Source: a virus
Lineage: Duplodnaviria; Heunggongvirae; Uroviricota; Caudoviricetes
IMG/VR virus record: IMGVR_UViG_2690316068_000002
DNA: 64,000 nucleotides
Reading direction: 5' to 3' (one strand)
Part shown: piece after piece, positions 5,155 through 32,013 of the stretch
Layout: every line of letters starts with the position of its first letter
How positions within the stretch are numbered: the stretch's first letter is position 1
Notes under the pieces: generated by a model
Database searches by the model: none
What the model was told of the DNA's origin: nothing
What the model saw: the letters and a program-made list of their open reading frames with translations, nothing else
Translations under genes and position numbers: made by a program

Positions 5155-5552
5155 TTGCTCACCTCATAGATGACCGGTCGATGGTGAGAGTCGGCTAAAG
5201 CGGCACGGAGTCGAGGATCGTGCACCAGCGCAGCGATAAGCAGATCGCCTTTATGCTCCGCTAATGTGCGCTTAATATGCTTCTCATAACTGGTGCCATT
5301 CGGTACGAGATGAAGCCAGTCATAATCAACGCCAAAATCTTTCAGCCATCGTTTAGTTGGCGCTTCAAGAGTTTCAGAGCGGCTACTGATAAGCACCACT
5401 TCAGCCCCTGAGCGAGCAAAACCACGCAACATACGGCTGGTGGGGAAAATGAGTTCATCACCGGCAATGAGCTGGCCTGCATCCGCGTCAGATACTGATT
5501 TACGATGGCTGGCATTTGCCAGCACACCTTCAATTTCGCATAAGACATACAT
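5151..5552 (-). CDS. hypothetical protein, possible HAD-like phosphatase
   Basis: ORF 5151..5612; ATG at 5552 has GAGG RBS and avoids overlap with thyA; degenerate CEIEGVL N-terminal motif. Confidence 0.4.
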   Translation of the reverse strand: MYVLCEIEGVLANASHRKSVSDADAGQLIAGDELIFPTSRMLRGFARSGAEVVLISSRSETLEAPTKRWLKDFGVDYDWLHLVPNGTSYEKHIKRTLAEHKGDLLIAALVHDPRLRAALADSHHRPVIYEVSK

Positions 5553-5565
5553 ACCTCTTGCCATA

Positions 5566-6669
5566 TCACACCGCCACTGGAACCTTGATCCACGGTAGAG
5601 GGTCATAGCCAAGAATTAAAACCTCGTCCCATTTGAAATCATCCAACTCTGACCATTCATGAGGGAAAATAACGACCGGATCTGAATGCTCTGGAGCCTG
5701 TCGTTTCATTAGCTCACACACACCTTCCATGTGGTTGTTGTACAAATGCACGTCAAAGCCAAAATGCACAAATGCACCGGCCATGTGACCCGTAATCTTC
5801 GCGAGAAAATGAGTGAGAATGCCATAGCCAGCAATATTGAATGGCATACCAACAAAAGTGTCTACGCTACGCTGTACGAGGCAGGAGTTGAGGATGCGTT
5901 TGGGGATTCCAAGTTCATCCAGTTCAGCTTCAGTAACACTGCCGTCCATCTCCAGATCGTATAGCATCTTGGTGTAGATAGACTCGTAACCGAGGCGACT
6001 GTGTTGAAGACCAATGTCAGTTGCCATCGTTAAACGGGTTTCAAAATCCAGCTCACGACTCCACAAAGAGAAGACAAAGTGGCAAGGTGGCAGTTTCATA
6101 TCCTCAAGCTCGCCTACGTTCCATGCGTTAAGCATGATGCGACGATCGGTAGGGTTCGTGCGCAGTGTATCGACAATACGCTGTAGCTGATCGATTTCAC
6201 GGGACAGCACTACGCGATCTTCACTGATACCCAGGTATCCCTCGACTTTGTACCCGCGTTCACGGAAAGTAGCGATCTTGCTCAGATATTCACTATGGCT
6301 CACGATGCGGGTATCTTCCCATCGACGCCACTGCTTACCGTAAACCGGCCCCAAATCGCCATTCTCATCGGCCCATGCATCCCAAATCTTAACGCCGTTA
6401 TCCTTGAGAAATTGGATGTTGCCCGTGCCTTTCAGATACCACTCAAGTTCGACAAGTAGTGGCTTAAGATTTACCGCCTTTCCAGAAATAAGCGGCACAG
6501 TCCCACCAGTAAGCATGTAGTAAGAGGGAACGTAGCAGGTGCTTAAAGTGCCAGTGCCTGTGCGATCATCAGCCTGCACGCCGCTTTTAAGCACCGTCTC
6601 AATAACTTTTGCATACGATGCGTTTGTTACCTGACCGTTCGTATGCTCTCGATTCAAAAGGAGTGACAC
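5566..6669 (-). CDS. thyA: thymidylate synthase
   Basis: DRTGTGT motif, catalytic PPCH motif; 367 aa; non-ATG (GTG) start at 6669 with GAGG RBS. Confidence 0.9.
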   Translation of the reverse strand: MSLLLNREHTNGQVTNASYAKVIETVLKSGVQADDRTGTGTLSTCYVPSYYMLTGGTVPLISGKAVNLKPLLVELEWYLKGTGNIQFLKDNGVKIWDAWADENGDLGPVYGKQWRRWEDTRIVSHSEYLSKIATFRERGYKVEGYLGISEDRVVLSREIDQLQRIVDTLRTNPTDRRIMLNAWNVGELEDMKLPPCHFVFSLWSRELDFETRLTMATDIGLQHSRLGYESIYTKMLYDLEMDGSVTEAELDELGIPKRILNSCLVQRSVDTFVGMPFNIAGYGILTHFLAKITGHMAGAFVHFGFDVHLYNNHMEGVCELMKRQAPEHSDPVVIFPHEWSELDDFKWDEVLILGYDPLPWIKVPVAV

Positions 6670-9029: not shown

Positions 9030-11345
9030 TCAGATTTTGCAGGCTCCGTCGCACTCATCTTCTGGCTCGACGGCTACAGCTTGCGTAAGTGGATTCTGCG
9101 CTTCGTCGTCATCACGCTTTCCTGCACCATCTCTGGTGTTGTGGTAGTAAAGCGTTTTAACTCCCATCTTGTAGGCGAGAAGCAAATCTGACAGTAGCGT
9201 CATCATTGGGACTTTATCGCCTTCAAAGCGAGAAGGGTCATAGTTGGTATTAGCTGAAATAGCCTGGTCAAAGAACTTCTGGATGATCGCCACCTTTGTC
9301 AGATAGCCGCGGTTGTCCGGCATATCCCACAGGTATTCATACTGTTCCTTCAGTTTTTCAAACTCAGGCACGACCATCTTAACGATGCCGTCCTTAGAAG
9401 ATTTCACCGACACCGGGCCACGAGGCGGTTCGATGCCGTTGGTGGAATTAGTGATCTGGCTGGAAGTCTCGCATGGCATTTGTGCCGTCAGAGTGGAGTT
9501 GCGAAGGCCGTATTTTGCAATACGTTCACGCAGTTCTTCCCACGGCATCTTTAACTCAAAGTTGGTTTCGCCGCTTTCGTCTAATGAAGAACGGTAATGG
9601 TCGATCGGCAACTGACCAATTGCGTATTTGGTCTGCTCAAACCAGTCACACTCACCTTTTGCTTCAGCAAGTCGGCAGCTGGCGTCAAGAAGGTAATACT
9701 GGATAGCTTCGAACGTTTCATGCACCAGTTTATTGCCAGCGGTATCAGAATAACGAACGCCATTCTTTGCCAGGTAATAAGCAAAGTTGGTTACACCAAT
9801 TCCCAGGCTACGACGAGCTTTGGCAGGCACTTCGGCTGCCTCCATCGGATAGTCTTGATAATCCAGTAACGAATCCAGTGCAGCAACGGCATAGAACGCC
9901 ACCTCTTTAAGAGACTCCAGTGAACGGATGGCTCCGAGGTTAAAAGCGGATAAAGTGCATAGCGCGATCTCACCGTTCGGGTCGTCGGTAAATGCCAGTG
10001 GACGGGTGGGTAGAGTGATCTCCATGCACAGGTTTGACTGGCGAACAGGTGCAAGAGCAGGAATGAAAGCGCCATGCTCGTTAATATGATCGACGTTCGC
10101 AATATAAATTCGGCCCGTGGACGCTCGTTCCTGCATCAGAGATGAGAACAGCTCAATGGCAGGTACTGACTTCTTGCGAATTGAATCATCGGCTTCGTAT
10201 TTATGGTACAGCTTTTCAAACAGATCCTGGTCTGTGAAGAAGGCTTCGTACATATCAGGCACATCATGCGGGCTGAACAGAGTGATGTTCTCGCTTCTGA
10301 CGAGTCGACGGTACATTAGACGGTTACTCATGACGCCGTAATCAAGATGGCGAACGCGGTTTTCATCAATACCACGGTTATTTTTCACCACCAGCAGACT
10401 TTCAACCTCAAGATGCCAAATCGGGTAAAACGCTGTTGCTGCGCCACCACGAACACCACCTTGCGAACAAGATTTAACAGCCGTCTGGAAATGCTTCAGG
10501 AATGGAATAACTCCGGTATGGGTGGCTTCACCATTGCGGATCTCGCTGCCCAGCGCACGGATACGGCCAAAACCAATACCAATTCCAGCACGACGTGAAA
10601 CGTAGTCGATAATTGCGGCTGAAGCTGCACTAATCCCTTTCAGACTATCGCCAGACTCAATCAGCACACAACTGGAGAACTGACGGGTTGGAGTACGGAC
10701 GCCGGCCATGATTGGTGTGGGCAGAGACAGTTTGAACGTACTTGTAACGTCATAGAAACCTTTGACCATCTCCATACGTGTTTTGCCAGCGCAGTCGTCT
10801 TCCCAATTCTGGAACAGACACATGCCTACCAGCATATAGATATGTTGCGGCCCCTCATGAATCTCACCAGTAACACGGTTTTGAACGAGGTATTTGCTTT
10901 GCAACTGCACCGTAGCTGCATAGCCAAAAAGATCGTCACGTTTCGGCTTAATGTAATTGCCGAGTTCTTCGATCTCTTCAAACGAATAATGTGTCAGCAA
11001 ATCCTTGTCATAAACGCCCTTGTTAACGTTCTTGACAATGTGTTGGTAGAAGTTCGGATAGTCGTAACGACCGAAGGCATCTTTGCGGATTTTAAAAATG
11101 TTCAGGCGGGCAGCCACCTGTGAGTAATTTGGTGCTTCTGGTGAGATCAAATCAGCGGCAGATTTAACCAAAGCCTCATGCAACTGGCTGGTGGTAATCC
11201 CATCAAAAATGCTGGCCGCAGCTCCCATTGCTACAGCGGATGCGCTTACACCACGAATGCCTTCTACGCCATACATTACGACGCGGTTGTATTTTTCTTC
11301 GGATAACGGCTCTGTTTGGCCGTTACGTTTTACGATGCTTATCAT
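9030..11345 (-). CDS. nrdA: ribonucleotide reductase class Ia large subunit
   Basis: 771 aa; RNR catalytic-core motifs including C-terminal cysteine pair; adjacent to nrdB. Confidence 0.92.
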   Translation of the reverse strand: MISIVKRNGQTEPLSEEKYNRVVMYGVEGIRGVSASAVAMGAAASIFDGITTSQLHEALVKSAADLISPEAPNYSQVAARLNIFKIRKDAFGRYDYPNFYQHIVKNVNKGVYDKDLLTHYSFEEIEELGNYIKPKRDDLFGYAATVQLQSKYLVQNRVTGEIHEGPQHIYMLVGMCLFQNWEDDCAGKTRMEMVKGFYDVTSTFKLSLPTPIMAGVRTPTRQFSSCVLIESGDSLKGISAASAAIIDYVSRRAGIGIGFGRIRALGSEIRNGEATHTGVIPFLKHFQTAVKSCSQGGVRGGAATAFYPIWHLEVESLLVVKNNRGIDENRVRHLDYGVMSNRLMYRRLVRSENITLFSPHDVPDMYEAFFTDQDLFEKLYHKYEADDSIRKKSVPAIELFSSLMQERASTGRIYIANVDHINEHGAFIPALAPVRQSNLCMEITLPTRPLAFTDDPNGEIALCTLSAFNLGAIRSLESLKEVAFYAVAALDSLLDYQDYPMEAAEVPAKARRSLGIGVTNFAYYLAKNGVRYSDTAGNKLVHETFEAIQYYLLDASCRLAEAKGECDWFEQTKYAIGQLPIDHYRSSLDESGETNFELKMPWEELRERIAKYGLRNSTLTAQMPCETSSQITNSTNGIEPPRGPVSVKSSKDGIVKMVVPEFEKLKEQYEYLWDMPDNRGYLTKVAIIQKFFDQAISANTNYDPSRFEGDKVPMMTLLSDLLLAYKMGVKTLYYHNTRDGAGKRDDDEAQNPLTQAVAVEPEDECDGACKI

Positions 11346-23694: not shown

Positions 23695-23967
23695 TCAGGC
23701 TCCTTTTGTTTCGTTGATTCGTTTTAAAGCGGCGGATTCATCGAATACAATCGCATCGTGGTTAAGGAGTCTGGATACACGAGCGAGGATTTTTACGACC
23801 TGCTCGCTGACTAATCCAAACTCGCGATCTGTCGCTTTCATTCCGGCAGCGCCTAGAATTGACGGCAGTGCGATGACAGCGTACTCACCGTGATAAAAGA
23901 CAATCTCTTTTGCCAGTTGGGCAGGGGTGGTTGTAGCGCCATTGATAATCGATTTAAGCATTAGCAA
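23695..23967 (-). CDS. hypothetical protein
   Basis: 90 aa ORF. Confidence 0.4.
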   Translation of the reverse strand: MLMLKSIINGATTTPAQLAKEIVFYHGEYAVIALPSILGAAGMKATDREFGLVSEQVVKILARVSRLLNHDAIVFDESAALKRINETKGA

Positions 23968-24905
23968 TACCTTTCGAATGGAAGAACAAACACTTCAAGG
24001 TCTTCAAGGAACGAACGGAAATTCAGCTCGTAGCACAGTTGCTCGAATGCTTTCACGTCACGATTGCCTTTGATTGTTTCGATTTCGGTAGGCGGAAACT
24101 TCGTCTCAATCAGGTTCATTAGCGTGATGTTTCTCTTGAACGCTTCGAGCATTCGACAGCCTGTTTTCTCGTTGAAGGCATTCTTCGCTAGTTTGTTGAA
24201 GGCGGTCTTATGACGCCCTTTATTAACCACGATTGAGCCGTCGTTGATGCCGCGTACCATCGTTGCGACACTTCCCCATTCATGCAGCAGCTCTTTCGCA
24301 CCGCCAGCACCAATGCCACCAACACCGCTAATGTTGTCCGAGTTATCGCCTTGTAATGCTTTTGCTTCCAAAAATGCGCGAGGCGTGGCGAATCCTGTCA
24401 GCTCCGCAAATTGCTCAAAATTAACCTGCTTGTTTTTGGCGTCTTCACGCAGGCTTACCCAGCTTACGTTTTCACGAACTAACTGAAGCCAGTCGCTATC
24501 GCCTGTTAACAGATAGATGTGTTCAACGGTTGGCTGCGGTGCCATGCGGGATACCAGCAGCCCGGCCAGATCATCCGCTTCTGCATCTTTTGCAATGAGT
24601 TGGGTAACTCCAAGCGCGGTCATCATTTTGAGGATGTATGGCTTCTGGATAGCAAAGCCTTCCTTCATCTTTTTCATATCAGGATCGTCGTCGCGATTTG
24701 CTTTGTAGTCCGGGTAAAAGTCGCGACGCTTGTCACTAAATCCATCCCAAAGAATCATAGGTCGGGCATGGAGGATGGAGGCATAACGACGGACGTTCTT
24801 AACAAAGCCGAAAGCAGCCTGTACTTCCATTTCGCCGTTGTGCAATTTGTCAGATTGTTGATGGTAATAACCCAGGCTATTGCCATCTACGAAGAGATAA
24901 TTCAC
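23961..24905 (-). CDS. flap endonuclease / 5'-3' exonuclease (FEN, T5 D15-like)
   Basis: VDGNSLGYY N-terminal motif and GVGGIGAGGAKEL helix-hairpin-helix motif; ORF begins with GTG at 24956, but GTG at 24905 with GGAAGGAA RBS leaves the upstream terminator outside the CDS. Confidence 0.75.
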   Translation of the reverse strand: MNYLFVDGNSLGYYHQQSDKLHNGEMEVQAAFGFVKNVRRYASILHARPMILWDGFSDKRRDFYPDYKANRDDDPDMKKMKEGFAIQKPYILKMMTALGVTQLIAKDAEADDLAGLLVSRMAPQPTVEHIYLLTGDSDWLQLVRENVSWVSLREDAKNKQVNFEQFAELTGFATPRAFLEAKALQGDNSDNISGVGGIGAGGAKELLHEWGSVATMVRGINDGSIVVNKGRHKTAFNKLAKNAFNEKTGCRMLEAFKRNITLMNLIETKFPPTEIETIKGNRDVKAFEQLCYELNFRSFLEDLEVFVLPFERYC

Positions 24906-24924
24906 CGGTACATTCCTTCCAAAA

Positions 24925-24950
24925 AGTAAGGCGTCCGTAGACGCCTTACT
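24925..24950 (-). terminator. rho-independent terminator (AGGCGTC...GACGCCT family)
   Basis: TAAGGCGTC-tacg-GACGCCTTAC followed on minus strand by TTTTTGG. Confidence 0.55.
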
Positions 24951-24965
24951 GGTCACGTAATGGGA

Positions 24966-25994
24966 TTACAGAGAGTCCAGCTCTCTCAGTAGGTCATCCA
25001 GACCTTCATCTTCCGTCGCAGATGCGGTTGCTACAGATGTCGCTGCGACTGCTTCAGACTCTTTGACTGATACGGCAACGGCAGCGGAACTTGCCTCTGG
25101 TTTAAATTCAGTTTCAACGGCACGGAGGATTTCTTCATCAACCAGACTGGTTGGTTCAGAAGCCGGTGTGTGCGCGGTTGCTACAGCCGTCGCTCCTTCT
25201 GTATGACCAGTGACAGAGCCAAATCCAGGTAGTGCCGCAGCCGATGTTTTCGCGGTTGAGGAAATTGCTGGTGCAGATGCTGCGGCAGTTGGTGCAGCGA
25301 TGCCAATCAGACGACCCATAGTGCGAACTGTCGACAGAAGACGAGTTTCATCAGCCTGATTTGCGTATGCGATCAGATCATGCTGGGTGTTCCAGAATTT
25401 ATCTTCGATATCGCCTTTGTAGACTTTACGCTTAGGCGAGACGTCATATTTGGTATCGCGACCAGAGCCAGTACGTTTAATCAGGAATGCGTAGCCTTCC
25501 TCTTTGCTCAGTGGATTGCCGATATCATCAGCGATGTCTTCGGTGATTGCTTTGCAGATATCATCGAATACAGTAGACGGCAGCTCGATTAACTGGCATT
25601 TCTCAGCATCTGCGAAATCCTCACGAGCAGAAAGAATGCCGTTGACCAGGTAGCGAGGAGTGGCACGCATTTGACCGATGCGTTCTTCCATTGCTTTGTT
25701 ACCCTTGTGACGAGCGCGACCTTCCATAACCATTTCGCATAGCTGACAAGCGCGACCGTGAGTATGTTGCTCACAAATATAAGCGTTGGTTGCTTCTTTA
25801 CCTTCCTCGTTCTGATACTTAACGTAGTGCATACCGAAAGTCTGGAAGAACTTACCGTTTGGGTCGTCTTTATTCGGGAAGATGCGGATATAGTTGACGC
25901 CGTCTTTTAAGCGAGTCAGATCAACGTTGTTGCCACGTTTGGCGGCAATGTCTTCACGAGTTTTGTTAAGCAAATCAAGTAATGTCTTAGACAT
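24966..25994 (-). CDS. putative ssDNA-binding protein (gp32-like)
   Basis: Cys/His cluster CEQHTHGRACQLCE, Ala/Ser/Thr-rich linker and acidic C-terminal tail EDEGLDDLLRELDSL typical of SSBs. Confidence 0.5.
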   Translation of the reverse strand: MSKTLLDLLNKTREDIAAKRGNNVDLTRLKDGVNYIRIFPNKDDPNGKFFQTFGMHYVKYQNEEGKEATNAYICEQHTHGRACQLCEMVMEGRARHKGNKAMEERIGQMRATPRYLVNGILSAREDFADAEKCQLIELPSTVFDDICKAITEDIADDIGNPLSKEEGYAFLIKRTGSGRDTKYDVSPKRKVYKGDIEDKFWNTQHDLIAYANQADETRLLSTVRTMGRLIGIAAPTAAASAPAISSTAKTSAAALPGFGSVTGHTEGATAVATAHTPASEPTSLVDEEILRAVETEFKPEASSAAVAVSVKESEAVAATSVATASATEDEGLDDLLRELDSL

Positions 25995-26111
25995 GTGTTT
26001 CTCCTTGTTGTGATTTGGCCGATGGCGCTATGCGCGTTGGGCTTTCGTTCATTCGTGGCTCTTTCGAGCTGTTAAATGATAGATCAGTACTTACTTATTA
26101 TCTATCAAAAA

Positions 26112-26543
26112 TCAACGGGGAGTAATAAAGCGTTCAGAGCCTAATCGCTCTAATTCAACGATGGCCATCTTTGACGCCTGAACGATCATGTCTCGGCGAT
26201 GCGAAAAGGCGGCGACAGCATGTTTGTATATGTCTGCGATGTGCCGTGCTTCATCCAACTTCTGCCGTTTAGACAGATACTGTGGGTTTGTTTTAACCTT
26301 AGCGTCCAGTACAGACTCGTTGAACTTAATGCCGTTCATACTCAAGTTCTTACGCTCTGTGTCGTATAGCTTTGCTTCAACAGCTTCAAGGTTAAGTTTT
26401 GCCTCTGCGACATCTCGATCTGCCTGCGCTAGTTTTGACCCATACTCCATTAAAAGCCGTGGCTGTTTACGCCATACTTCCTCAAGGTTGTCGCGGTCGA
26501 ACTCCAGATCGGCCATGATTTTAGAAAAAATATCAGTGTTCAC
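26112..26543 (-). CDS. hypothetical protein
   Basis: 143 aa ORF. Confidence 0.5.
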   Translation of the reverse strand: MNTDIFSKIMADLEFDRDNLEEVWRKQPRLLMEYGSKLAQADRDVAEAKLNLEAVEAKLYDTERKNLSMNGIKFNESVLDAKVKTNPQYLSKRQKLDEARHIADIYKHAVAAFSHRRDMIVQASKMAIVELERLGSERFITPR

Positions 26544-26797
26544 TCTAATAGGTTCCTACTTATAAAATCTGTATCAATTATATCAAACAGAGAACGGGTT
26601 TATGGCGTCATGTCAACTTTGTTCAGGGGAAAATATTGAGATCACCGAAGATAATTAGTTGTCTTATTTTGGTAAGCTGTGCTGACCATCTTTAGGTCAC
26701 ATACATGAGATGGATGGGGGTGTGGCATGAACGGATGAAATTCAGTCGCCGTTGACAGATGTCAACACTGTGAATAGAATACTATTATCGGAGGCGA

Positions 26798-27022
26798 ATG
26801 AAGCAACATCCGAATAAGCATATTCAAGCAGCCATTGACTATGCATTAAGTAAAGGCTGGATCTGGGTAGCTGCTGGTGGTGCTGCACATTGTTTTTGCA
26901 GACTGCGATGCGGTAATCCAGAAGGTGAACACAAAACTCACCAAATGAGCGTATGGTCGACTCCGGGTAATCCCGAAAACCATGCCAAACAGATCAAACG
27001 AATGGTTGATCGTTGTAAATGA
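26798..27022 (+). CDS. small Cys/His-containing protein, possible HicA-like toxin
   Basis: 74 aa; KGW-x-GG-x-H...H-x-MSVW-x-PG pattern loosely resembles HicA/YcfA fold; followed by hairpin. Confidence 0.4.
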   Translation: MKQHPNKHIQAAIDYALSKGWIWVAAGGAAHCFCRLRCGNPEGEHKTHQMSVWSTPGNPENHAKQIKRMVDRCK

Positions 27023-27028
27023 TTTCAA

Positions 27029-27050
27029 GGCGGCATTAGCCGCCTTTTGC
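27029..27050 (+). terminator. hairpin with T-run between the two plus-strand genes
   Basis: AGGCGGC-atta-GCCGCCT-TTTG. Confidence 0.4.
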
Positions 27051-27082
27051 AGAAACTGTCCAACTATCTTCAAAGGAAAACT

Positions 27083-27646
27083 ATGGCGCTTTATAACTTC
27101 ACTCTGACGCTCTCAGGCGTATCGTATGAGACGGAAGGACTGGAAGACGCGCTGTACCAAAACGGCTGTGACGATGCGCTAATTTGCGCATATGGAAACT
27201 CCGTCTATGTAGAATTTGACCGCGAAGCACAATCACTTGATGCAGCTATCGCATCTGCGGTCGACAATATTGAATCAGCCGGTATCGGTGCAATTGTTGA
27301 ATCCGTCGACTCGGCTCTTGTGGGCTTAAGCGATATCGCGGAACTGACAGACCTGTCTCGCCAGGCAGTGGCGTTGCTCAAAGACGGTAAGCGCGGAAGC
27401 GGCGACTTCCCTTGCCCTGTACAACGCATAAAAGGCCAGTCTCCTCTCTGGGATTGGGCTGATGTGGCTGAATGGCTCATGAATAACGGACGACTTAAAG
27501 AGGGCGATCAAATTGTCCAAAATGCCCGAACTTTGAGTAAATGGAATCTGGCGCTTCGAAACAGCGTCTCGAAAGATTTCAACGAAATAGAGCAAATTGC
27601 GGAGAAACTGATTAAACGCCGCAAAGATATTGCGAAATGCGCATAA
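27083..27646 (+). CDS. hypothetical protein with C-terminal helix-turn-helix, possible HicB-like antitoxin
   Basis: ORF 27047..27646; ATG at 27083 preceded by AAGGAAA; HTH-like IAELTDLSRQAVALLKDG. Confidence 0.4.
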   Translation: MALYNFTLTLSGVSYETEGLEDALYQNGCDDALICAYGNSVYVEFDREAQSLDAAIASAVDNIESAGIGAIVESVDSALVGLSDIAELTDLSRQAVALLKDGKRGSGDFPCPVQRIKGQSPLWDWADVAEWLMNNGRLKEGDQIVQNARTLSKWNLALRNSVSKDFNEIEQIAEKLIKRRKDIAKCA

Positions 27647-27975
27647 TGATGCCCGCCAATTGGCGGGCATCTGTTCTCTGTAAAGGTGTCTGGCATCGTC
27701 TGGTTCGTTAACGTTTACTAAACCAATGGTGACAAAAATTAGTTATCTTTGAAAAATAAAGGTTGCATGAAAAGAAGGGGTATGCGTTAATAGCATCGTT
27801 GGTTTGCAAGACAGACCTTATGTAAGCAGTTTTAGTAAAGCAGTCTCAGTTCAGTGTTATCTTCTGATTTCCCTTCTTCGTGAGTCTCCTCCTTAAGTGC
27901 CTAAGTAAGTCCCAATCTATACAGATCAAATTCTCGCCGCACTATGTGGCTCACAAAATTAAGAAGGTAATATCT

Positions 27976-28191
27976 ATGTCTAATAAAATGACTGGTTTAG
28001 TAAAATGGTTTAACTCTGATAAAGGCTTTGGCTTTATTTCTCCTGCTGATGGCAGTAAAGATGTTTTTGTACATTTTTCGGCAATTCAGAGTAATAATTT
28101 CCGCACTTTGGAAGAAGGCCAGCAGGTCGAATTCTCTATCGAGAATGGGGCTAAAGGCCCAGCAGCAGCAAATGTCGTTGCTCTAAGTTGA
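27976..28191 (+). CDS. cold-shock protein (CspA family)
   Basis: [71 protein letters not shown] is near-identical in pattern to E. coli CspA/B/G; RNP1/RNP2 motifs present; AAGAAGG RBS; long leader. Confidence 0.9.
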
Positions 28192-28461
28192 TTCAACGCT
28201 GATGATCCTCATTTCTACAATAACGAAGACGGTGTAAGCCTGAGTGGATAGATTTGTAGGATTGTACAAGTTGAATAAATTAGCATGGTAAGGCCATGCT
28301 AATTAAATCGACACAACGGCCAGTTTATTCCATAAAAGTGAATTGCCCATTGTGGCGAAATGCGGGGTTGCCGCATGAATAGTCAAAGGCAGAAGCTAAC
28401 TGCCGGCATGGCAAAACAAAGTGCGTAAGAGGAGTGACTTCCTCAACAAGCGCCATAATTC

Positions 28462-28490
28462 TTTATAAACCCGCCAACAGGCGGGTTTTC
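28462..28490. terminator. bidirectional terminator
   Basis: CCCGCC-aaca-GGCGGG with T-rich tracts on both sides. Confidence 0.6.
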
Positions 28491-28494
28491 TTTA

Positions 28495-31400
28495 TTACTT
28501 ATTTATTGTCTCCGCGATATCAGCCAGAATGGCCTCCAGTCGCTCTCCTTCTTCCGGTCGGAAGTACAGGATATTCGGGTTAAATCCGTAGAAGACGGTT
28601 GCATCAAGCTCTGGGAAGTACTCCTTACGACCAATCAGATCTGATGGTTTACTCTTATTGTTAAATAGTGCGGTTGAACGACTACCACACGTCAAAATGT
28701 AGGTCGGACGCACCAGATTGATCTCTTCACGCATAAAGTCGGTGAACTGGCCGATCTCGTCTTTGGTGTAGTCTTTTTCTTTGTCTTTAACCTTCTTGCA
28801 AACGCCTGTGACATAGAGATCGCCCATGCGTAAATCTCCAGCCGTCAATAGCTTGGCCTTAAAGTCGTCGTATCCGTTCTCCATGAAGTAACCGGTTCGA
28901 GCATCATTGCCGTTCGCATTGTCCAGAATGATCATGATTTTCGGCTTAATACCAATGTTGGGGCGGATTAGTTCATCACCTAAGCCCATTTCAGCCGCCA
29001 TCCGTGTCATGAGCACGTTAATCTCAGCCGAACGTTTGGGGTTCATCTCAAACGGACGTGAGGCTTTAACTGCGTCTATGACAAGGTTTCCCATCAATTC
29101 AGCCTGGTCGCGTAGGCGCTCTGGATCAGTTGCTGGCAGACTACCTGGCTCGATGGATGCAAACGCCCCTACTTTTTGCAGCGATTCGCGCACTCGACTA
29201 TTACAGGCACGTTTCTCGACAGCTTCTTCGAATTGCGCCAGTGACTCGAATTTGCCGCCAACTTTTTCTCGCGCTCTCATGATGGCTTGGCAGCCATTCT
29301 CAGAACACCCCTTCACAGCAGAGAAGGGCGCATACAGCACCTGGCTGCCATCTTCAAGCGTGCGGATCTCGATTCGGTTAGATGACACGTTAACGTCTGG
29401 TGGCAATACGCGAATACCATAGGTCAGCGCATCTTTAACCAGCCCCTGGTGTTTATCTTCGCCAAGAATAGTGAGAGCAGCAGCGAAAAACTCTGCGGGA
29501 TAATGAGTTTTCAACCACATAGATTGATAACTGATTAAGGAGTAGGCAACAGAGTGTGATTTATTGAACTGGTAGGCACCATTTTTTTCGAATGCGGTCC
29601 AGATCTCCTTCGCTTTCATCTCTGATAGCCCTGGATGTGACGCTGTAACGCGTACTGCGTTTATAGGTAGTTTTGCGCCGTGCTCAAGTGCCTCTTCGAC
29701 AGTTTTCAGAGTTCCGTCTTCGCATTTAAAATGTTCCGCACGGTGAATGCGCTGTGTAGTGCCATCTTCCAGCTCAACGTCTATCCAGCCAGCTTGAGCC
29801 TGAACGATGAACTTCTCGCCCATGCTCTTCATTTTTTCCATGTTCTTCTTACCGATTGCGGAACGCACACCGTCAGCTTCAGCCATTGTGAAGCCGGCAA
29901 GCAATCGAGTCGCGTTCATCGTCTGTTCCTGATAGAGAATCACGCCATTTGTTTCCGCGGTAAGTTCATCAAGAACGGGGTGTAATGATTCCGGCGTCAT
30001 AAAGCCTTTGGCGACAGAAACATAGTCGTCCAACATGCCGGATTGGATCGGGCCAGGTCGGAAGAGTGCGGTCGTGGCGACAACGGTTTTAAAGCTCATT
30101 GGCTCAATGCCACCGCCTAGATCTTTAAGCAGCTTGCGCATGGGGCCGGACTCCAGCTGGAATACGCCCTGTGTATACCCTGCAGCAAAACCATCCAGCA
30201 CCTTGCGATCTTCAAGAGAAATGGCATCAAGATTGATATCTTCACCTGTGTTCTCTTTTATGTAGCGTTTTGCACTATCGAGCAAATCGAGAGTTGCCAG
30301 GCCAAGCACGTCCAGCTTAATTAGGCCCATAGCCTCGCAGTAACGCTTGTCAAATGCGATACAACGCGCGTCACCACGGCGCTCAACCGGTGTACGTTCT
30401 GTCAGAGGAACACCTGCTACAATCATCCCTGCCGCATGTCTACCAAAGCCACGCATAAGGCTTTGTAACTTGCAGGCTGCATTGAATGCATCAGGATATT
30501 TTGTTGCGTATTTGTCGAGACTTGCCAGTTGTTCGCGCAGCTCTTCCAATGGAAGGCTATCATCCTCGACGTTCTTCAGTTCTTTTGATACCGCCATATC
30601 TGCGGACTCCACACCATAAATACGAGCGGTGTCACGTAGTGCAGAGGCTGCGCCCAGGTAGGTGAAGTTCGGAATGCCTGCAACGTAATCTTCGCCGTAG
30701 CGTTCATTCAGATACTCGATCACCTCATGGCGACGTGCCTGGCTGAAGTCCAAGTCCGCATCCGGCAAGTCGAGACGCTCAGGGTTGATGAAACGCTCAA
30801 ACAGAAGACCGTGACGGATTGGGTCGACGTTGGTTATGCCTATGCACCACGCCACCAGAGAACCGGCAGAGGAACCACGACCAGGCCCGACAGGAATGCC
30901 AGTTTCACGGCTGTGATTCATCAGATCGCGTACCATCAGGAAGTAACCACAAAATCCCAGGCGAGTCAGCGTGTTCATTTCGTACTTTAGCCGCTCAACA
31001 TAAACCCTGTTCTCAGAAGCAGGTGGTGTGTATCCAAACTCTTTTGTGGTAAGACGTTTACGCAGCCCTGCAACAGCCAGTTTCATCAGCGTTGCAGGTT
31101 CGTCGTCTGCCATCTTGGGCAGTGCTGGTGGCAATTCATGCCAGCGCCATGTGCAGGCATCGATAATGGAGTCCTGCGTTGTTGAGGCCATTGCAGCTGT
31201 TACCGGCACATCCATGCGAACGGAGAAGGCTTTAAGCGCCTCAAGGAGATGGCGACGACCATTGATGGCGTTATCTCGCTGGTGGGGGATACGCAGACGA
31301 TGCGGCTGGTCGATTTTTATGTTGTTCGTAACCATGTGCGCAATGTCTTTAATGTCTGCATCGTCGATCGATTCGTAATAAGCGGGATAGAACGCTACTG

Positions 31401-32013
31401 GCTCTATTTTCAGTGCGCTGGCTACTTTCATCGCTCGGACGTTAATCTGGTCGTAGAATGGGGTAGGGTGCGGATAAACCACGCTATAGAAGTTGTCTTT
31501 CCCGCCCGCTGTAATCAGTGAGCTTATGATTTTTGCAAAATCGTTGCGTTGGAACACGCTACCGATGTCGGAAGTGAGCAGGATGATGTTGCCTTTGGCA
31601 TATGTAGAAACCAACTGTTCGAGCGAGAGACGCGGTACAAAGTAGAACTGTTCTCGTGTGTTGGCCACCGTCATTAGTTCGCAGATGTCGCGATATCCTT
31701 GCTCATTTTTAATTAGAGCGGTAAACGAGTAGTTACGTCCCCGCTCTAATGATTCCATACATCTCATAGATTCTTTAGCAAGTTTAGCCCGGTGCTCGTA
31801 TGTGGGATCATCAACGATATTTAGTTTCACACCACAAATAACCGCCATGTCGTCACCAGCGGCACGTTGTAGTGGAATAACGCTCGCAATATTCATGCTA
31901 TCTGCTGAAATTACAGCGGTGTAGCCAGCTTCTCTGGCAATCTTCACCGCGTTTTCTGCTTTTAGAGCCGACTCCCCAAGTGAGAAGTCAGTTCGAACCA
32001 TCAGTGCCTTCAT
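28495..32013 (-). CDS. dnaE: DNA polymerase III alpha-like replicative polymerase (DnaE family)
   Basis: 1172 aa; block GYFLMVRDLMNHSRETGIPVGPGRGSSAGSLVAWCIGITNVDPIRHGLLFERFINPER matches the DnaE palm-domain signature; N-terminal PHP-like region. Confidence 0.85.
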   Translation of the reverse strand: MKALMVRTDFSLGESALKAENAVKIAREAGYTAVISADSMNIASVIPLQRAAGDDMAVICGVKLNIVDDPTYEHRAKLAKESMRCMESLERGRNYSFTALIKNEQGYRDICELMTVANTREQFYFVPRLSLEQLVSTYAKGNIILLTSDIGSVFQRNDFAKIISSLITAGGKDNFYSVVYPHPTPFYDQINVRAMKVASALKIEPVAFYPAYYESIDDADIKDIAHMVTNNIKIDQPHRLRIPHQRDNAINGRRHLLEALKAFSVRMDVPVTAAMASTTQDSIIDACTWRWHELPPALPKMADDEPATLMKLAVAGLRKRLTTKEFGYTPPASENRVYVERLKYEMNTLTRLGFCGYFLMVRDLMNHSRETGIPVGPGRGSSAGSLVAWCIGITNVDPIRHGLLFERFINPERLDLPDADLDFSQARRHEVIEYLNERYGEDYVAGIPNFTYLGAASALRDTARIYGVESADMAVSKELKNVEDDSLPLEELREQLASLDKYATKYPDAFNAACKLQSLMRGFGRHAAGMIVAGVPLTERTPVERRGDARCIAFDKRYCEAMGLIKLDVLGLATLDLLDSAKRYIKENTGEDINLDAISLEDRKVLDGFAAGYTQGVFQLESGPMRKLLKDLGGGIEPMSFKTVVATTALFRPGPIQSGMLDDYVSVAKGFMTPESLHPVLDELTAETNGVILYQEQTMNATRLLAGFTMAEADGVRSAIGKKNMEKMKSMGEKFIVQAQAGWIDVELEDGTTQRIHRAEHFKCEDGTLKTVEEALEHGAKLPINAVRVTASHPGLSEMKAKEIWTAFEKNGAYQFNKSHSVAYSLISYQSMWLKTHYPAEFFAAALTILGEDKHQGLVKDALTYGIRVLPPDVNVSSNRIEIRTLEDGSQVLYAPFSAVKGCSENGCQAIMRAREKVGGKFESLAQFEEAVEKRACNSRVRESLQKVGAFASIEPGSLPATDPERLRDQAELMGNLVIDAVKASRPFEMNPKRSAEINVLMTRMAAEMGLGDELIRPNIGIKPKIMIILDNANGNDARTGYFMENGYDDFKAKLLTAGDLRMGDLYVTGVCKKVKDKEKDYTKDEIGQFTDFMREEINLVRPTYILTCGSRSTALFNNKSKPSDLIGRKEYFPELDATVFYGFNPNILYFRPEEGERLEAILADIAETINK

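What the first reader, a model, noticed from the sequence alone, without database searches (positions are those of the whole stretch)
26798..27646. Plus-strand two-gene module: small Cys/His protein plus HTH protein, possible HicAB-like pair
A 74-aa protein (KGWIWVAAGGAAHCF...HQMSVWSTPG) is followed, after a hairpin, by a 188-aa protein with a C-terminal helix-turn-helix (IAELTDLSRQAVALL). The small-protein-then-DNA-binding-partner order and loose pattern similarity fit HicA/HicB, but the resemblance is weak and the module could be something else.
Basis: inference. Interest (0 to 1): 0.5.

Follow-up and report, generated by a model that had tools for sequence, protein, structure and literature searches.

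The report
HicA-like toxin pair, non-HicB partner
A phage-plasmid carries a strictly conserved, probably self-regulated two-gene cassette that looks like a toxin-antitoxin pair: the small protein is predicted to have a HicA-type RNase fold braced by a likely zinc site, and its DNA-binding partner is not a HicB, so this is a likely new, untested variant of a familiar kind of system.

Summary
Two real genes sit on the + strand: A (26798-27022, 74 aa) and B (27083-27646, 187 aa), with an 8-bp hairpin between them.

The HicAB reading is half right.
- A has a near-invariant His in the beta1-beta2 turn, where HicA has its catalytic His, and a compensating Cys/His pattern that suggests a zinc site.
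- B is not HicB. It has a ferredoxin-like N-domain, a weakly AlpA-like winged HTH and C-terminal helices.

A and B are adjacent in all 81 loci compared and in 7 further distant loci; B's N-domain is the constant part. A palindrome, GTTGAC-N4-GTCAAC, overlaps the -35 box and is conserved across genera.

PADLOC lists the pair as the untested candidate PDC-M06. The Cyrano/pLF82 record calls it HicA/HicB, and both genes are expressed in the lysogen.

Best reading: a type II toxin-antitoxin-like cassette with a HicA-like toxin and a new partner. Toxicity, RNase activity, zinc binding and operator binding are all untested.

The parts
26751..26766 (+). Putative operator: perfect palindrome GTTGACA-GA-TGTCAAC overlapping the -35 box
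   Evidence: it is the only match in the 64-kb window (0.14 expected by chance); a perfect GTTGAC-N4-GTCAAC or GTTTAC-N4-GTAAAC palindrome lies within 150 nt upstream of A in 65 of 81 loci. Most of the others have near-perfect versions. None occurs elsewhere in the +-10 kb flanks. Binding by B is inferred.
26752..26780 (+). Sigma-70-type promoter: TTGACA, 17 nt, TAGAAT (11 of 12 matches to consensus)
   Evidence: The equivalent -35/-10 spacing is visible in the homologous loci. Transcription in the lysogen is reported for the identical Cyrano genes (PMC9928086).
26798..27022 (+). Gene A: 74-aa HicA-fold protein with a putative zinc site; proposed toxin/effector. SD GGAGG at 26790-26794.
27027..27046 (+). 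Intergenic GC-rich hairpin AAGGCGGC-ATTA-GCCGCCTT followed by TTG; a weak terminator, attenuator or mRNA-stabilising element
   Evidence: 34 of 81 loci have a hairpin of -10 kcal/mol or better directly after the A stop codon, with unrelated stem sequences. In 21 loci the genes overlap or lie within 3 nt of each other. The terminator scan did not call this one.
27083..27646 (+). Gene B: 187-aa DNA-binding partner; proposed antitoxin and autorepressor. SD AAGGA at 27073-27077.
   Evidence: phrog_2620, 2.4e-105; PDC-M06B, 1.3e-32.
27083..27313 (+). B residues 1-77: ferredoxin-like b-a-b-b-a-b domain with near-invariant GCDDA and F-D-R-E-A motifs; the part of B always found next to A; proposed A-binding domain
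27314..27487 (+). B residues 78-135: helix-turn-helix (82-100) plus a conserved FPxPxxRxxGxSPLWxW wing and helix 125-134; AlpA/excisionase-like winged HTH
   Evidence: helices 82-89 and 93-100; residues 105-121 have low confidence. (invariant F109 P110 P112 R115 G118 S120 P121 W123 W125). (excisionase/regulator PHROGs, 2e-4 to 1e-3). (Phage_AlpA weak in 11 of 40 members, best E 0.025). The assignment is weak.
27509..27640 (+). B residues 143-186: two long C-terminal helices; possible dimerisation element
   Evidence: H143-162 and H166-186, pLDDT 84-93. The dimerisation role is inferred. This region is absent or different in distant partners.
27648..27671 (+). Intrinsic-terminator-like hairpin ending the operon (GATGCCCGCCAA/TTGGCGGGCATC, then a T-rich tail)

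Best explanation
The module is a self-contained, probably autoregulated, type II toxin-antitoxin-like cassette. It is carried as cargo by an SSU5-like phage-plasmid.

Gene A encodes a 74-aa protein with a predicted HicA-type (dsRBD-like) fold. A four-ligand Cys/His site, probably zinc, appears to tie the beta2-beta3 loop to the C-terminus. A near-invariant His31 sits in the beta1-beta2 turn, where HicA RNases carry their single catalytic histidine. A is therefore most likely an RNA-cleaving or RNA-binding toxin.

Gene B encodes the partner. Its N-terminal ferredoxin-like domain is the only part always found next to A and is proposed to bind and neutralise A. Its winged HTH, probably as a dimer, is proposed to bind the GTTGAC-N4-GTCAAC palindrome over the -35 box and repress the operon. 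The hairpin between the genes would modulate the A:B transcript ratio.

In the phage-plasmid the cassette would stabilise inheritance, exclude other phages, or both.

Shown here:
- gene reality;
- strict pairing of A and B;
- predicted folds;
- the conserved palindrome;
- expression in the lysogen (from the literature).

Inferred:
- toxicity and RNase activity;
- zinc binding;
- A-B contact;
- B-operator binding;
- biological role.
For: Pairing:
- B lies directly downstream of A on the same strand in 81 of 81 loci (gap 3-195 nt by tblastn). These span Enterobacterales, Pasteurellaceae, Moraxellaceae, Neisseriaceae and others.
- In 7 of 7 additional distant metagenomic or genomic members the next gene matches B's N-domain.

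Fold of A:
- The AF2 model has pLDDT 88 and topology a1-b1-b2-b3-a2.

Active-site analogy:
- H31 is conserved in 199 of 205 family members, with Gly/Ser just before it.
- HicA has one conserved catalytic His in the b1-b2 turn with Gly and Ser nearby (PMC6159526).

Zinc site:
- C38 and C73 are near-invariant.
- The other two ligands come from loop His-His (58 members), or one loop Cys plus a C-terminal CxH (55), or two or three loop Cys (25).

Operator:
- The palindrome over the -35 box is conserved across genera and is unique in each locus and in the window.

Cassette behaviour:
- Contexts are varied and mostly housekeeping.
- It occurs on 313 plasmids.
- It is absent from the same site in the relative PhiR41_1, and a divergent allele sits at that site in SSU5.

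Expression:
- The identical Cyrano genes are listed as morons, at 30x (A) and 14x (B) over the local prophage background (PMC9928086).

PADLOC:
- Both proteins match the two components of candidate system PDC-M06.
Against: - There is no sequence-level link to HicA. Pfam HicA_toxin is not hit at E<=1 by A or by 91 relatives.
- A PDB sequence-profile search finds nothing.
- hhalign against an E. coli-type HicA profile gives only an 18-column, non-colinear match at 77% probability. That HicA profile is narrow, however, and does not find the other PDB HicAs either.
- Foldseek against the PDB gives no significant hit and no HicA.
- Residue-level equivalence of H31 with the HicA catalytic His rests on topology, not on a superposition I could inspect.
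- Nothing here shows toxicity, neutralisation, RNA cleavage, metal binding or DNA binding.
- A terminator-like hairpin that could lower B relative to A is unusual for a module whose antitoxin must be in excess.
- B's strongly conserved acidic and Cys motifs (GCDDA, FDREA) might indicate a function beyond simple binding.
Confidence: 0.5

Rival explanations
1. It is a canonical HicA/HicB system, as the first reader suggested and as the Cyrano GenBank record annotates it (CYRAN_51 'HicA toxin protein', CYRAN_50 'putative antitoxin HicB').
For: The Cyrano annotation and the moron table in PMC9928086. Gene order is toxin first, as in hicAB. A has a HicA-like predicted fold. There is a palindromic operator.
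Against: B's N-domain is b-a-b-b-a-b (ferredoxin-like), not the b-b-b-a-b partial RNase H fold that defines HicB (definition in PMC10865869). There are no Pfam HicA or HicB hits for the proteins or their relatives. RefSeq/PGAP names the pair only 'hypothetical protein' and 'helix-turn-helix transcriptional regulator'. None of the 14 published HicA contexts has such a partner.
Confidence: 0.08
2. It is an anti-phage defence system (PADLOC candidate PDC-M06). B would hold A inactive and sense infection, for example through its ferredoxin-like, ACT/RAM-like domain. Release of A would then abort infection or exclude superinfecting phages from the phage-plasmid's host. This overlaps with the best explanation and differs mainly in the biological role and in giving B a sensing function.
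For: Both proteins match the PDC-M06A and PDC-M06B models. PDCs were derived from cassettes embedded in BREX, DISARM or type I RM loci (bioRxiv 10.1101/2024.01.29.577857). The genes are expressed as morons in the lysogen. HicA-domain modules in general have been proposed to act in defence (PMC10865869). B's N-domain fold resembles ligand-binding ACT/RAM domains.
Against: All 145 PDCs are explicitly untested. In the 75 or so loci whose immediate neighbours were scanned, those neighbours are mostly housekeeping genes: GNAT, ABC transporter ATPases, epimerase, Mur ligase, LysR. Only one locus has an adjacent Cas3. The many PADLOC ATPase-model hits have the same counts as the ABC-transporter and epimerase neighbours and look like cross-hits.
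Confidence: 0.3
3. It is a non-toxic regulatory pair. B would be an AlpA-like transcription factor, and A a small zinc-binding co-regulator, anti-repressor or nucleic-acid-binding protein that modulates B or a host process.
For: B carries a DNA-binding domain, and some sources name it an AlpA-family or excisionase-like regulator. A has no proven enzymatic motif. Small Cys/His proteins are often regulators. [quoted passage not shown]
Against: The operator occurs only at the module's own promoter in the window and in every locus examined. B therefore appears to regulate only itself and A. Some partners lack any DNA-binding domain yet keep the N-domain next to A. That points to a protein-protein neutralisation core rather than a transcription-factor core. 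The cassette sits in unrelated chromosomal contexts, plasmids and phages, as selfish TA modules do. The His at the HicA catalytic position is conserved in 97% of members.
Confidence: 0.15

Closest known systems
HicA toxins (Pfam PF07927; e.g. E. coli HicA 6HPB, S. pneumoniae 5YRZ, Y. pestis HicA3 4P78, B. pseudomallei 6G26)
   Different: There is no detectable sequence similarity. A has an 11-residue beta2-beta3 insertion and a C-terminal Cys that form a putative four-ligand zinc site, which I do not know to be described for HicA. A also has an extra near-invariant N-terminal H-P-x-K motif. Foldseek gives no significant match.
HicB antitoxins (Pfam PF15919/PF05534; partial RNase H fold plus Xre-HTH or RHH)
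   Same: B is likewise encoded downstream of the small protein. It is likewise modular, with an N-terminal partner-associated domain and a C-terminal-half DNA-binding domain. As in classical hicAB, a palindromic operator lies in the promoter (PMC10865869). DBD-less short versions exist, as in Gerdes classes 1 and 2.
   Different: The N-domain is ferredoxin-like (b-a-b-b-a-b), not b-b-b-a-b. The DNA-binding domain is a weakly AlpA/excisionase-like winged HTH, not Xre-HTH or RHH. B has an added C-terminal helical hairpin. There are no Pfam HicB hits.
PADLOC phage defence candidate PDC-M06 (Payne et al., bioRxiv 2024)
   Same: Both proteins match its two component models (PDC-M06A at 1.2e-19, PDC-M06B at 1.3e-32). 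On those matches, this module is an instance of that candidate.
   Different: PDC-M06 is only a computational candidate from guilt-by-embedding, with no assigned fold, mechanism or phenotype. In the genomes sampled here the cassette is mostly solitary among housekeeping genes.
Addiction modules of phage-plasmids (e.g. P1 phd-doc); from general knowledge
   Same: It is a small autoregulated two-gene cassette on a low-copy, non-mobilizable plasmid prophage and is expressed in the carrier state.
   Different: The protein families are unrelated, and a stabilisation phenotype has not been tested for this module.

Membership tests
HicA toxin family (PF07927) | Significant sequence match to the HicA_toxin profile | tested here: not met
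   No hit at E<=1 for A or for any of 91 diverse relatives. The PDB profile search found no HicA. hhalign against an E. coli-type HicA alignment gave 18 non-colinear columns at 77% probability; that HicA profile is narrow.
HicA toxin family (PF07927) | alpha-beta-beta-beta-alpha dsRBD-like fold | tested here: met
   AF2 model with pLDDT 88: H7-18, E22-25, E32-37, (H43-47), E49-53, H59-72. This is a predicted structure, not an experimental one.
HicA toxin family (PF07927) | Structure search retrieves HicA structures as the closest solved folds | tested here: inconclusive
HicA toxin family (PF07927) | Single conserved catalytic His in the beta1-beta2 turn with Gly/Ser nearby | tested here: met
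   H31 is present in 199 of 205 members and lies just before beta2 (32-37). The consensus is G-x-S-x-H. The feature is defined in PMC6159526. Equivalence is judged by topology; no superposition was inspected.
HicA toxin family (PF07927) | Ribosome-independent RNase activity and growth arrest on expression | not testable with these tools
   Needs expression and toxicity assays and in vitro RNA-cleavage assays.
HicB antitoxin family | N-terminal partial RNase H fold (beta-beta-beta-alpha-beta) | tested here: not met
HicB antitoxin family | Sequence match to the HicB / HicB_lk_antitox profiles | tested here: not met
   No hit at E<=1 for B or for 40 relatives.
HicB antitoxin family | C-terminal Xre-HTH or RHH DNA-binding domain that autorepresses through a palindromic operator | tested here: inconclusive
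   A DNA-binding domain is present but looks AlpA/excisionase-like. A conserved palindrome overlaps the -35 box. Binding was not tested.
Type II toxin-antitoxin module (generic) | Two small adjacent co-oriented genes that strictly co-occur | tested here: met
   81 of 81 loci and 7 of 7 additional distant members.
Type II toxin-antitoxin module (generic) | Autoregulatory operator at its own promoter | tested here: met
   The sequence feature is conserved and locus-specific: a perfect palindrome in 65 of 81 loci, near-perfect in most others, none elsewhere in the flanks, and a single site in the window. Occupancy by B is inferred.
Type II toxin-antitoxin module (generic) | Mobile cassette behaviour (varied genomic contexts; plasmids and phages) | tested here: met
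   259 neighbour clusters among 479 flanking genes, mostly housekeeping. 313 plasmids carry it. It is absent from the same site in PhiR41_1, and a divergent allele is present there in SSU5.
Type II toxin-antitoxin module (generic) | Toxin inhibits growth; antitoxin neutralises it by direct binding | not testable with these tools
   Needs expression, rescue and pull-down experiments.
PADLOC PDC-M06 candidate defence system | Adjacent genes matching the PDC-M06A and PDC-M06B HMMs | tested here: met
   A matches six PDC-M06A models (best 1.2e-19). B matches PDC-M06B at 1.3e-32 over 159 of 174 profile positions.
PADLOC PDC-M06 candidate defence system | Association with other defence genes | tested here: not met
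   Among 150 immediate neighbours in about 75 loci, only one is an unambiguous defence gene (Cas3). The other PADLOC hits have the same counts as the ABC-ATPase and epimerase housekeeping neighbours. Only the first gene on each side was scanned.
PADLOC PDC-M06 candidate defence system | Anti-phage phenotype | not testable with these tools
   The source paper states that the 145 PDCs are untested.

The most novel reading that the evidence does not exclude
A and B found a distinct, previously undescribed toxin-antitoxin/defence family of about 700 clusters at 50% identity, spread across Proteobacteria and beyond. It would be a zinc-braced, HicA-fold RNase neutralised by a ferredoxin-like domain instead of HicB, in effect a fifteenth HicA context. 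It would supply both plasmid addiction and superinfection exclusion for SSU5/pHCM2/pMT1-type phage-plasmids, including one on a Yersinia pestis contig.
Probability: 0.3. Interest if true: 0.6.

Novelty: new variant of a known kind. Interest (0 to 1): 0.45.

Why it matters
If confirmed, this would show that the HicA RNase fold has been recruited with an unrelated antitoxin scaffold and a structural metal site. That would extend the catalogue of HicA contexts beyond the 14 described from sequence searches.

It would give a mechanism and a testable active site (H31; C38, H45, H48, C73) to an untested PADLOC candidate, PDC-M06.

It would also correct an over-specific database annotation ('HicB') on a module found in 134 of 5,426 complete E. 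coli genomes, always on plasmids. Related plasmids occur in Enterobacter, Yersinia, Citrobacter and Klebsiella.

The module may contribute to the stable carriage of SSU5-like phage-plasmids, such as pLF82/Cyrano of the Crohn's-associated strain LF82.

Tried and rejected
- Sequence-profile routes to a known family gave nothing significant for either protein: Pfam, NCBIfam and PDB sequence profiles.
- Sixteen of 91 relatives of A give weak RuBisCO_small hits (best 1.2e-4, all far below the 27-bit cut-off). I treat these as spurious. They probably explain one NCBI record that names a homologue 'ribulose bisphosphate carboxylase small subunit'.
- hhalign of the A family against an E. coli-type HicA alignment gave a short, non-colinear match. 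I reject it as evidence either way, because that HicA profile cannot find the other solved HicAs.
- Foldseek against the PDB gave no significant hits for A.
- B as a global phage regulator: rejected because the operator occurs only once in the 64-kb window.
- Defence-island context: not seen among immediate neighbours.
- Literature: searching for 'PDC-M06' found nothing. One broad search was uninformative.
- The TTG start at 27047 for B: rejected in favour of ATG 27083, on the homologue N-termini and the SD site.

Full report
**1. What is there**

The window is an SSU5-like phage-plasmid of E. coli. The 2.5 kb around the finding is 99.8% identical to Escherichia phage Cyrano (OV696614), the plasmid prophage of strain LF82. 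The central 1 kb is 100% identical to many 95-155 kb E. coli plasmids, mostly 100-115 kb.

On the + strand the layout is as follows.
- A sigma-70-type promoter: TTGACA, 17 nt, TAGAAT, at 26752-26780 (11 of 12 matches).
- Gene A at 26798-27022 (74 aa), with SD GGAGG.
- A perfect 8-bp hairpin at 27027-27046.
- Gene B at 27083-27646 (187 aa from the ATG that matches the homologue N-termini).
- A terminator-like hairpin at 27648-27671.

One correction: the helix-turn-helix sits at residues 82-100, in the middle of B, not at its C-terminus.

**2. The genes are real and always paired**

A has 55 clusters at 90% identity. An exhaustive HMM search finds 688 clusters at 50% identity (E<=1e-3), all 55-183 aa and usually 70-100 aa. 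B has 273 clusters.

In 80 species-representative genomes found with the A profile, plus Cyrano, B lies immediately downstream on the same strand in 81 of 81 loci. I also looked up seven more distant A relatives (P0055, P0217, P0302, P0254, P0223, P0285; two places for P0055). Each is followed, often with overlapping stop and start codons, by a gene that matches the B profile.

The match always covers B's N-terminal 70-77 residues. Three partners (85-91 aa) consist of that domain alone, and another (121 aa) carries a different C-terminus. The conserved core of the system is therefore A plus B's N-domain. The DNA-binding half of B is an accessory.

**3. Protein A**

No Pfam, NCBIfam or PDB sequence-profile match is significant. 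None of 91 diverse relatives hits Pfam HicA_toxin even at E<=1.

The AF2 model is confident (pLDDT 88). Its order of elements is helix 7-18, strands 22-25 and 32-37, a short helix 43-47, strand 49-53 and helix 59-72. That is the alpha-beta-beta-beta-alpha topology described for the HicA dsRBD-like fold (PMC10865869).

Supporting it, His31 is conserved in 199 of 205 family members. It sits at the end of the beta1-beta2 turn and is preceded by a G-x-S motif. HicA toxins have a single conserved catalytic His in the beta1-beta2 turn with Gly and Ser nearby.

**4. A putative zinc site in A**

Cys38, at the end of beta2, is present in 201 of 205 members. Cys73, at the C-terminus, is present in 183 of 205. 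The remaining two candidate ligands are supplied in mutually exclusive ways:
- two His in the beta2-beta3 loop (H45 and H48, as in this window), with no Cys there and no C-terminal His: 58 members;
- one loop Cys plus a C-terminal C-x-H: 55 members;
- two or three loop Cys: 25 members.

This compensating pattern is what a tetrahedral structural metal site would produce. It is inference from sequence. I could not inspect model coordinates, and no metal was modelled. I am not aware of such a site in described HicA proteins (own knowledge).

**5. Protein B**

B's AF2 model has pLDDT 82. Residues 1-77 form a beta-alpha-beta-beta-alpha-beta domain (pLDDT 86-97). After it come the helix-turn-helix at 82-100, a low-confidence but sequence-invariant stretch (FPxPxxRxxGxSPLWxW, 105-125), a helix at 125-134 and two long helices at 143-186.

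The DNA-binding part looks like an AlpA/excisionase-type winged HTH, but only weakly. The evidence is PHROG excisionase/regulator families at 2e-4 to 1e-3, sub-threshold Phage_AlpA hits in 11 of 40 relatives, and source names such as 'AlpA family transcriptional regulator'.

The N-domain carries near-invariant acidic and Cys motifs, GCDDA and F-D-R-E-A. I propose that this surface contacts A. That is inference.

**6. Regulatory anatomy**

The -35 hexamer is embedded in the perfect palindrome GTTGACA-GA-TGTCAAC at 26751-26766. The motif occurs once in the 64-kb window, against 0.14 expected by chance.

Across the 81 loci, a perfect GTTGAC-N4-GTCAAC palindrome lies within 150 nt upstream of A in 65 (41-71 nt upstream, most often 47). 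In several Pasteurellaceae and Moraxella loci the half-sites are GTTTAC and GTAAAC. Most of the remaining loci have one- or two-mismatch versions. No copy occurs anywhere else in the +-10 kb flanks.

This is a conserved, module-specific operator that overlaps the promoter, as in autoregulated type II TA operons including classical hicAB. The loci with the variant half-site also have a different predicted recognition helix in B (RQA[IV]ALL versus R[ASM]A[LIV]xxY). That is suggestive, but it is confounded by phylogeny.

Between the genes, 34 loci have a hairpin of -10 kcal/mol or better directly after the A stop codon, with unrelated stem sequences. In 21 loci the two genes overlap or lie within 3 nt of each other. 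So the hairpin is a recurrent but not universal feature.

In the LF82 transcriptome the identical genes are listed as morons, at 30x (A) and 14x (B) over the local prophage background (PMC9928086). This is compatible with partial termination or stabilisation at the hairpin, but that paper did not test it.

**7. Context and distribution**

- In E. coli the module is on plasmids only: 134 of 5,426 complete genomes and no chromosomal copy.
- In PLSDB it occurs on 313 plasmids of Escherichia, Enterobacter, Yersinia, Citrobacter, Klebsiella and others. Of these, 295 are non-mobilizable; the best-matching records listed are mostly 100-115 kb.
- A Yersinia pestis 108-kb contig carries it in the same uvsY/PolIII-alpha context.
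- SSU5 itself has a divergent allele (57% identity for A) at the same site, SSU5_055/054.
- The relative PhiR41_1 has uvsY and PolIII-alpha only 125 nt apart. The module plus the adjacent csp gene is therefore a roughly 1.95-kb cargo insert at 26544-28494.
- In 77 of the 81 loci the context is not SSU5-like. The module is a solitary cassette among housekeeping genes: opp/dpp ABC transporter, folB, epimerase, GNAT, GST, cardiolipin synthase, cheB, Mur ligase.
- Only one immediate neighbour is an unambiguous defence gene (Cas3). The other PADLOC hits have the same counts as the ABC-ATPase and epimerase neighbours.

**8. What is already known**

The Cyrano record names the genes 'HicA toxin protein' and 'putative antitoxin HicB'. 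The LF82 prophage paper repeats those names without any experiment on them. RefSeq calls them 'hypothetical protein' and 'helix-turn-helix transcriptional regulator'.

PADLOC-DB lists the pair as PDC-M06. This is one of 145 explicitly untested candidates, derived from cassettes embedded in BREX, DISARM or type I RM loci. Gerdes's survey of HicA contexts, built from sequence searches with verified HicAs, describes 14 classes. Their partners are HicB (partial RNase H fold), viperins or an SMC fusion, and none resembles B.

**9. Verdict**

The most likely reading (confidence about 0.5) is a type II toxin-antitoxin-like cassette. A would be a HicA-fold, zinc-braced, His-dependent RNase-type toxin. 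B would neutralise A through its ferredoxin-like N-domain and autorepress the operon through its winged HTH at the palindrome. The cassette would serve plasmid-prophage stabilisation, phage exclusion, or both.

It works like HicAB, but it fails the membership tests for HicB outright and for HicA at the sequence level. I therefore classify it as a new variant of a known kind, not as a HicAB member.

The main uncertainties are these.
- Every functional step is inferred: toxicity, RNA cleavage, zinc binding, A-B contact and operator binding.

Noticed in passing
window 27798-28215 (+); CDS about 27973-28191: A CspA-family cold-shock protein gene follows the module. It has a full-length cspA 5'-UTR thermoregulator (Rfam RF01766, 187 bits against a gathering score of 78). 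It belongs to the same roughly 1.95-kb insert, which is absent from the relative PhiR41_1. Similar csp genes occur in other coliphages.
   Followed up: partly
window 26544-28494 compared with L091 (PhiR41_1) 5544-5670: In PhiR41_1 the uvsY-like gene and PolIII-alpha are 125 nt apart. In this window about 1.95 kb of cargo (the A-B module plus csp) lies between them. SSU5 carries a divergent A-B allele and an extra small ORF at the same site. This looks like a cargo hotspot in SSU5-like phage-plasmids.
   Followed up: partly
window 28495-32013 (-) compared with L001: The PolIII-alpha gene next to the module is only about 93% identical at protein level to Cyrano's, although the module region is 99.8% identical at DNA level. 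The window is therefore a mosaic relative of Cyrano, not Cyrano itself.
   Followed up: no
Proteins P0010, P0190, P0208, P0229, P0240, P0244, P0258 (relatives of A): Several database members of the A family are truncated or frameshifted after about residue 47-59. Some may be contig-end artefacts. Others (for example P0190, P0208, P0244) continue with unrelated residues, as expected for inactivated toxin genes.
   Followed up: no
P0039 (Shewanella homologue of A): One NCBI record names an A homologue 'ribulose bisphosphate carboxylase small subunit'. This probably comes from the weak, sub-threshold RuBisCO_small similarity seen in 16 of 91 members, and it looks like a misannotation.
   Followed up: partly
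L058 and L076 (Cardiobacteriaceae MAGs) 10213-10488; L086 915-1172: Here the partner of A is only 85-91 aa, consisting of the ferredoxin-like domain without any DNA-binding domain. No palindrome was found upstream of A in L058 or L076. How these versions are regulated is unknown.
   Followed up: partly
L022 (Yersinia pestis NCTC5923, 108-kb contig) about 9950-10885: The Y. pestis copy sits in the same uvsY/PolIII-alpha context. Its palindrome is degenerate (GTTGACACGCGCTCAC), and its A ORF is nine codons longer at the 3' end. This may be decay of regulation in that lineage.
   Followed up: no
window 23961-26543 (-): The module is flanked upstream by a T4-like recombination and replication set on the opposite strand: a 5'-3' exonuclease, a gp32-like SSB and a UvsY-like mediator. 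In the Cyrano record a 780-aa RecA-like protein lies further on.
   Followed up: no
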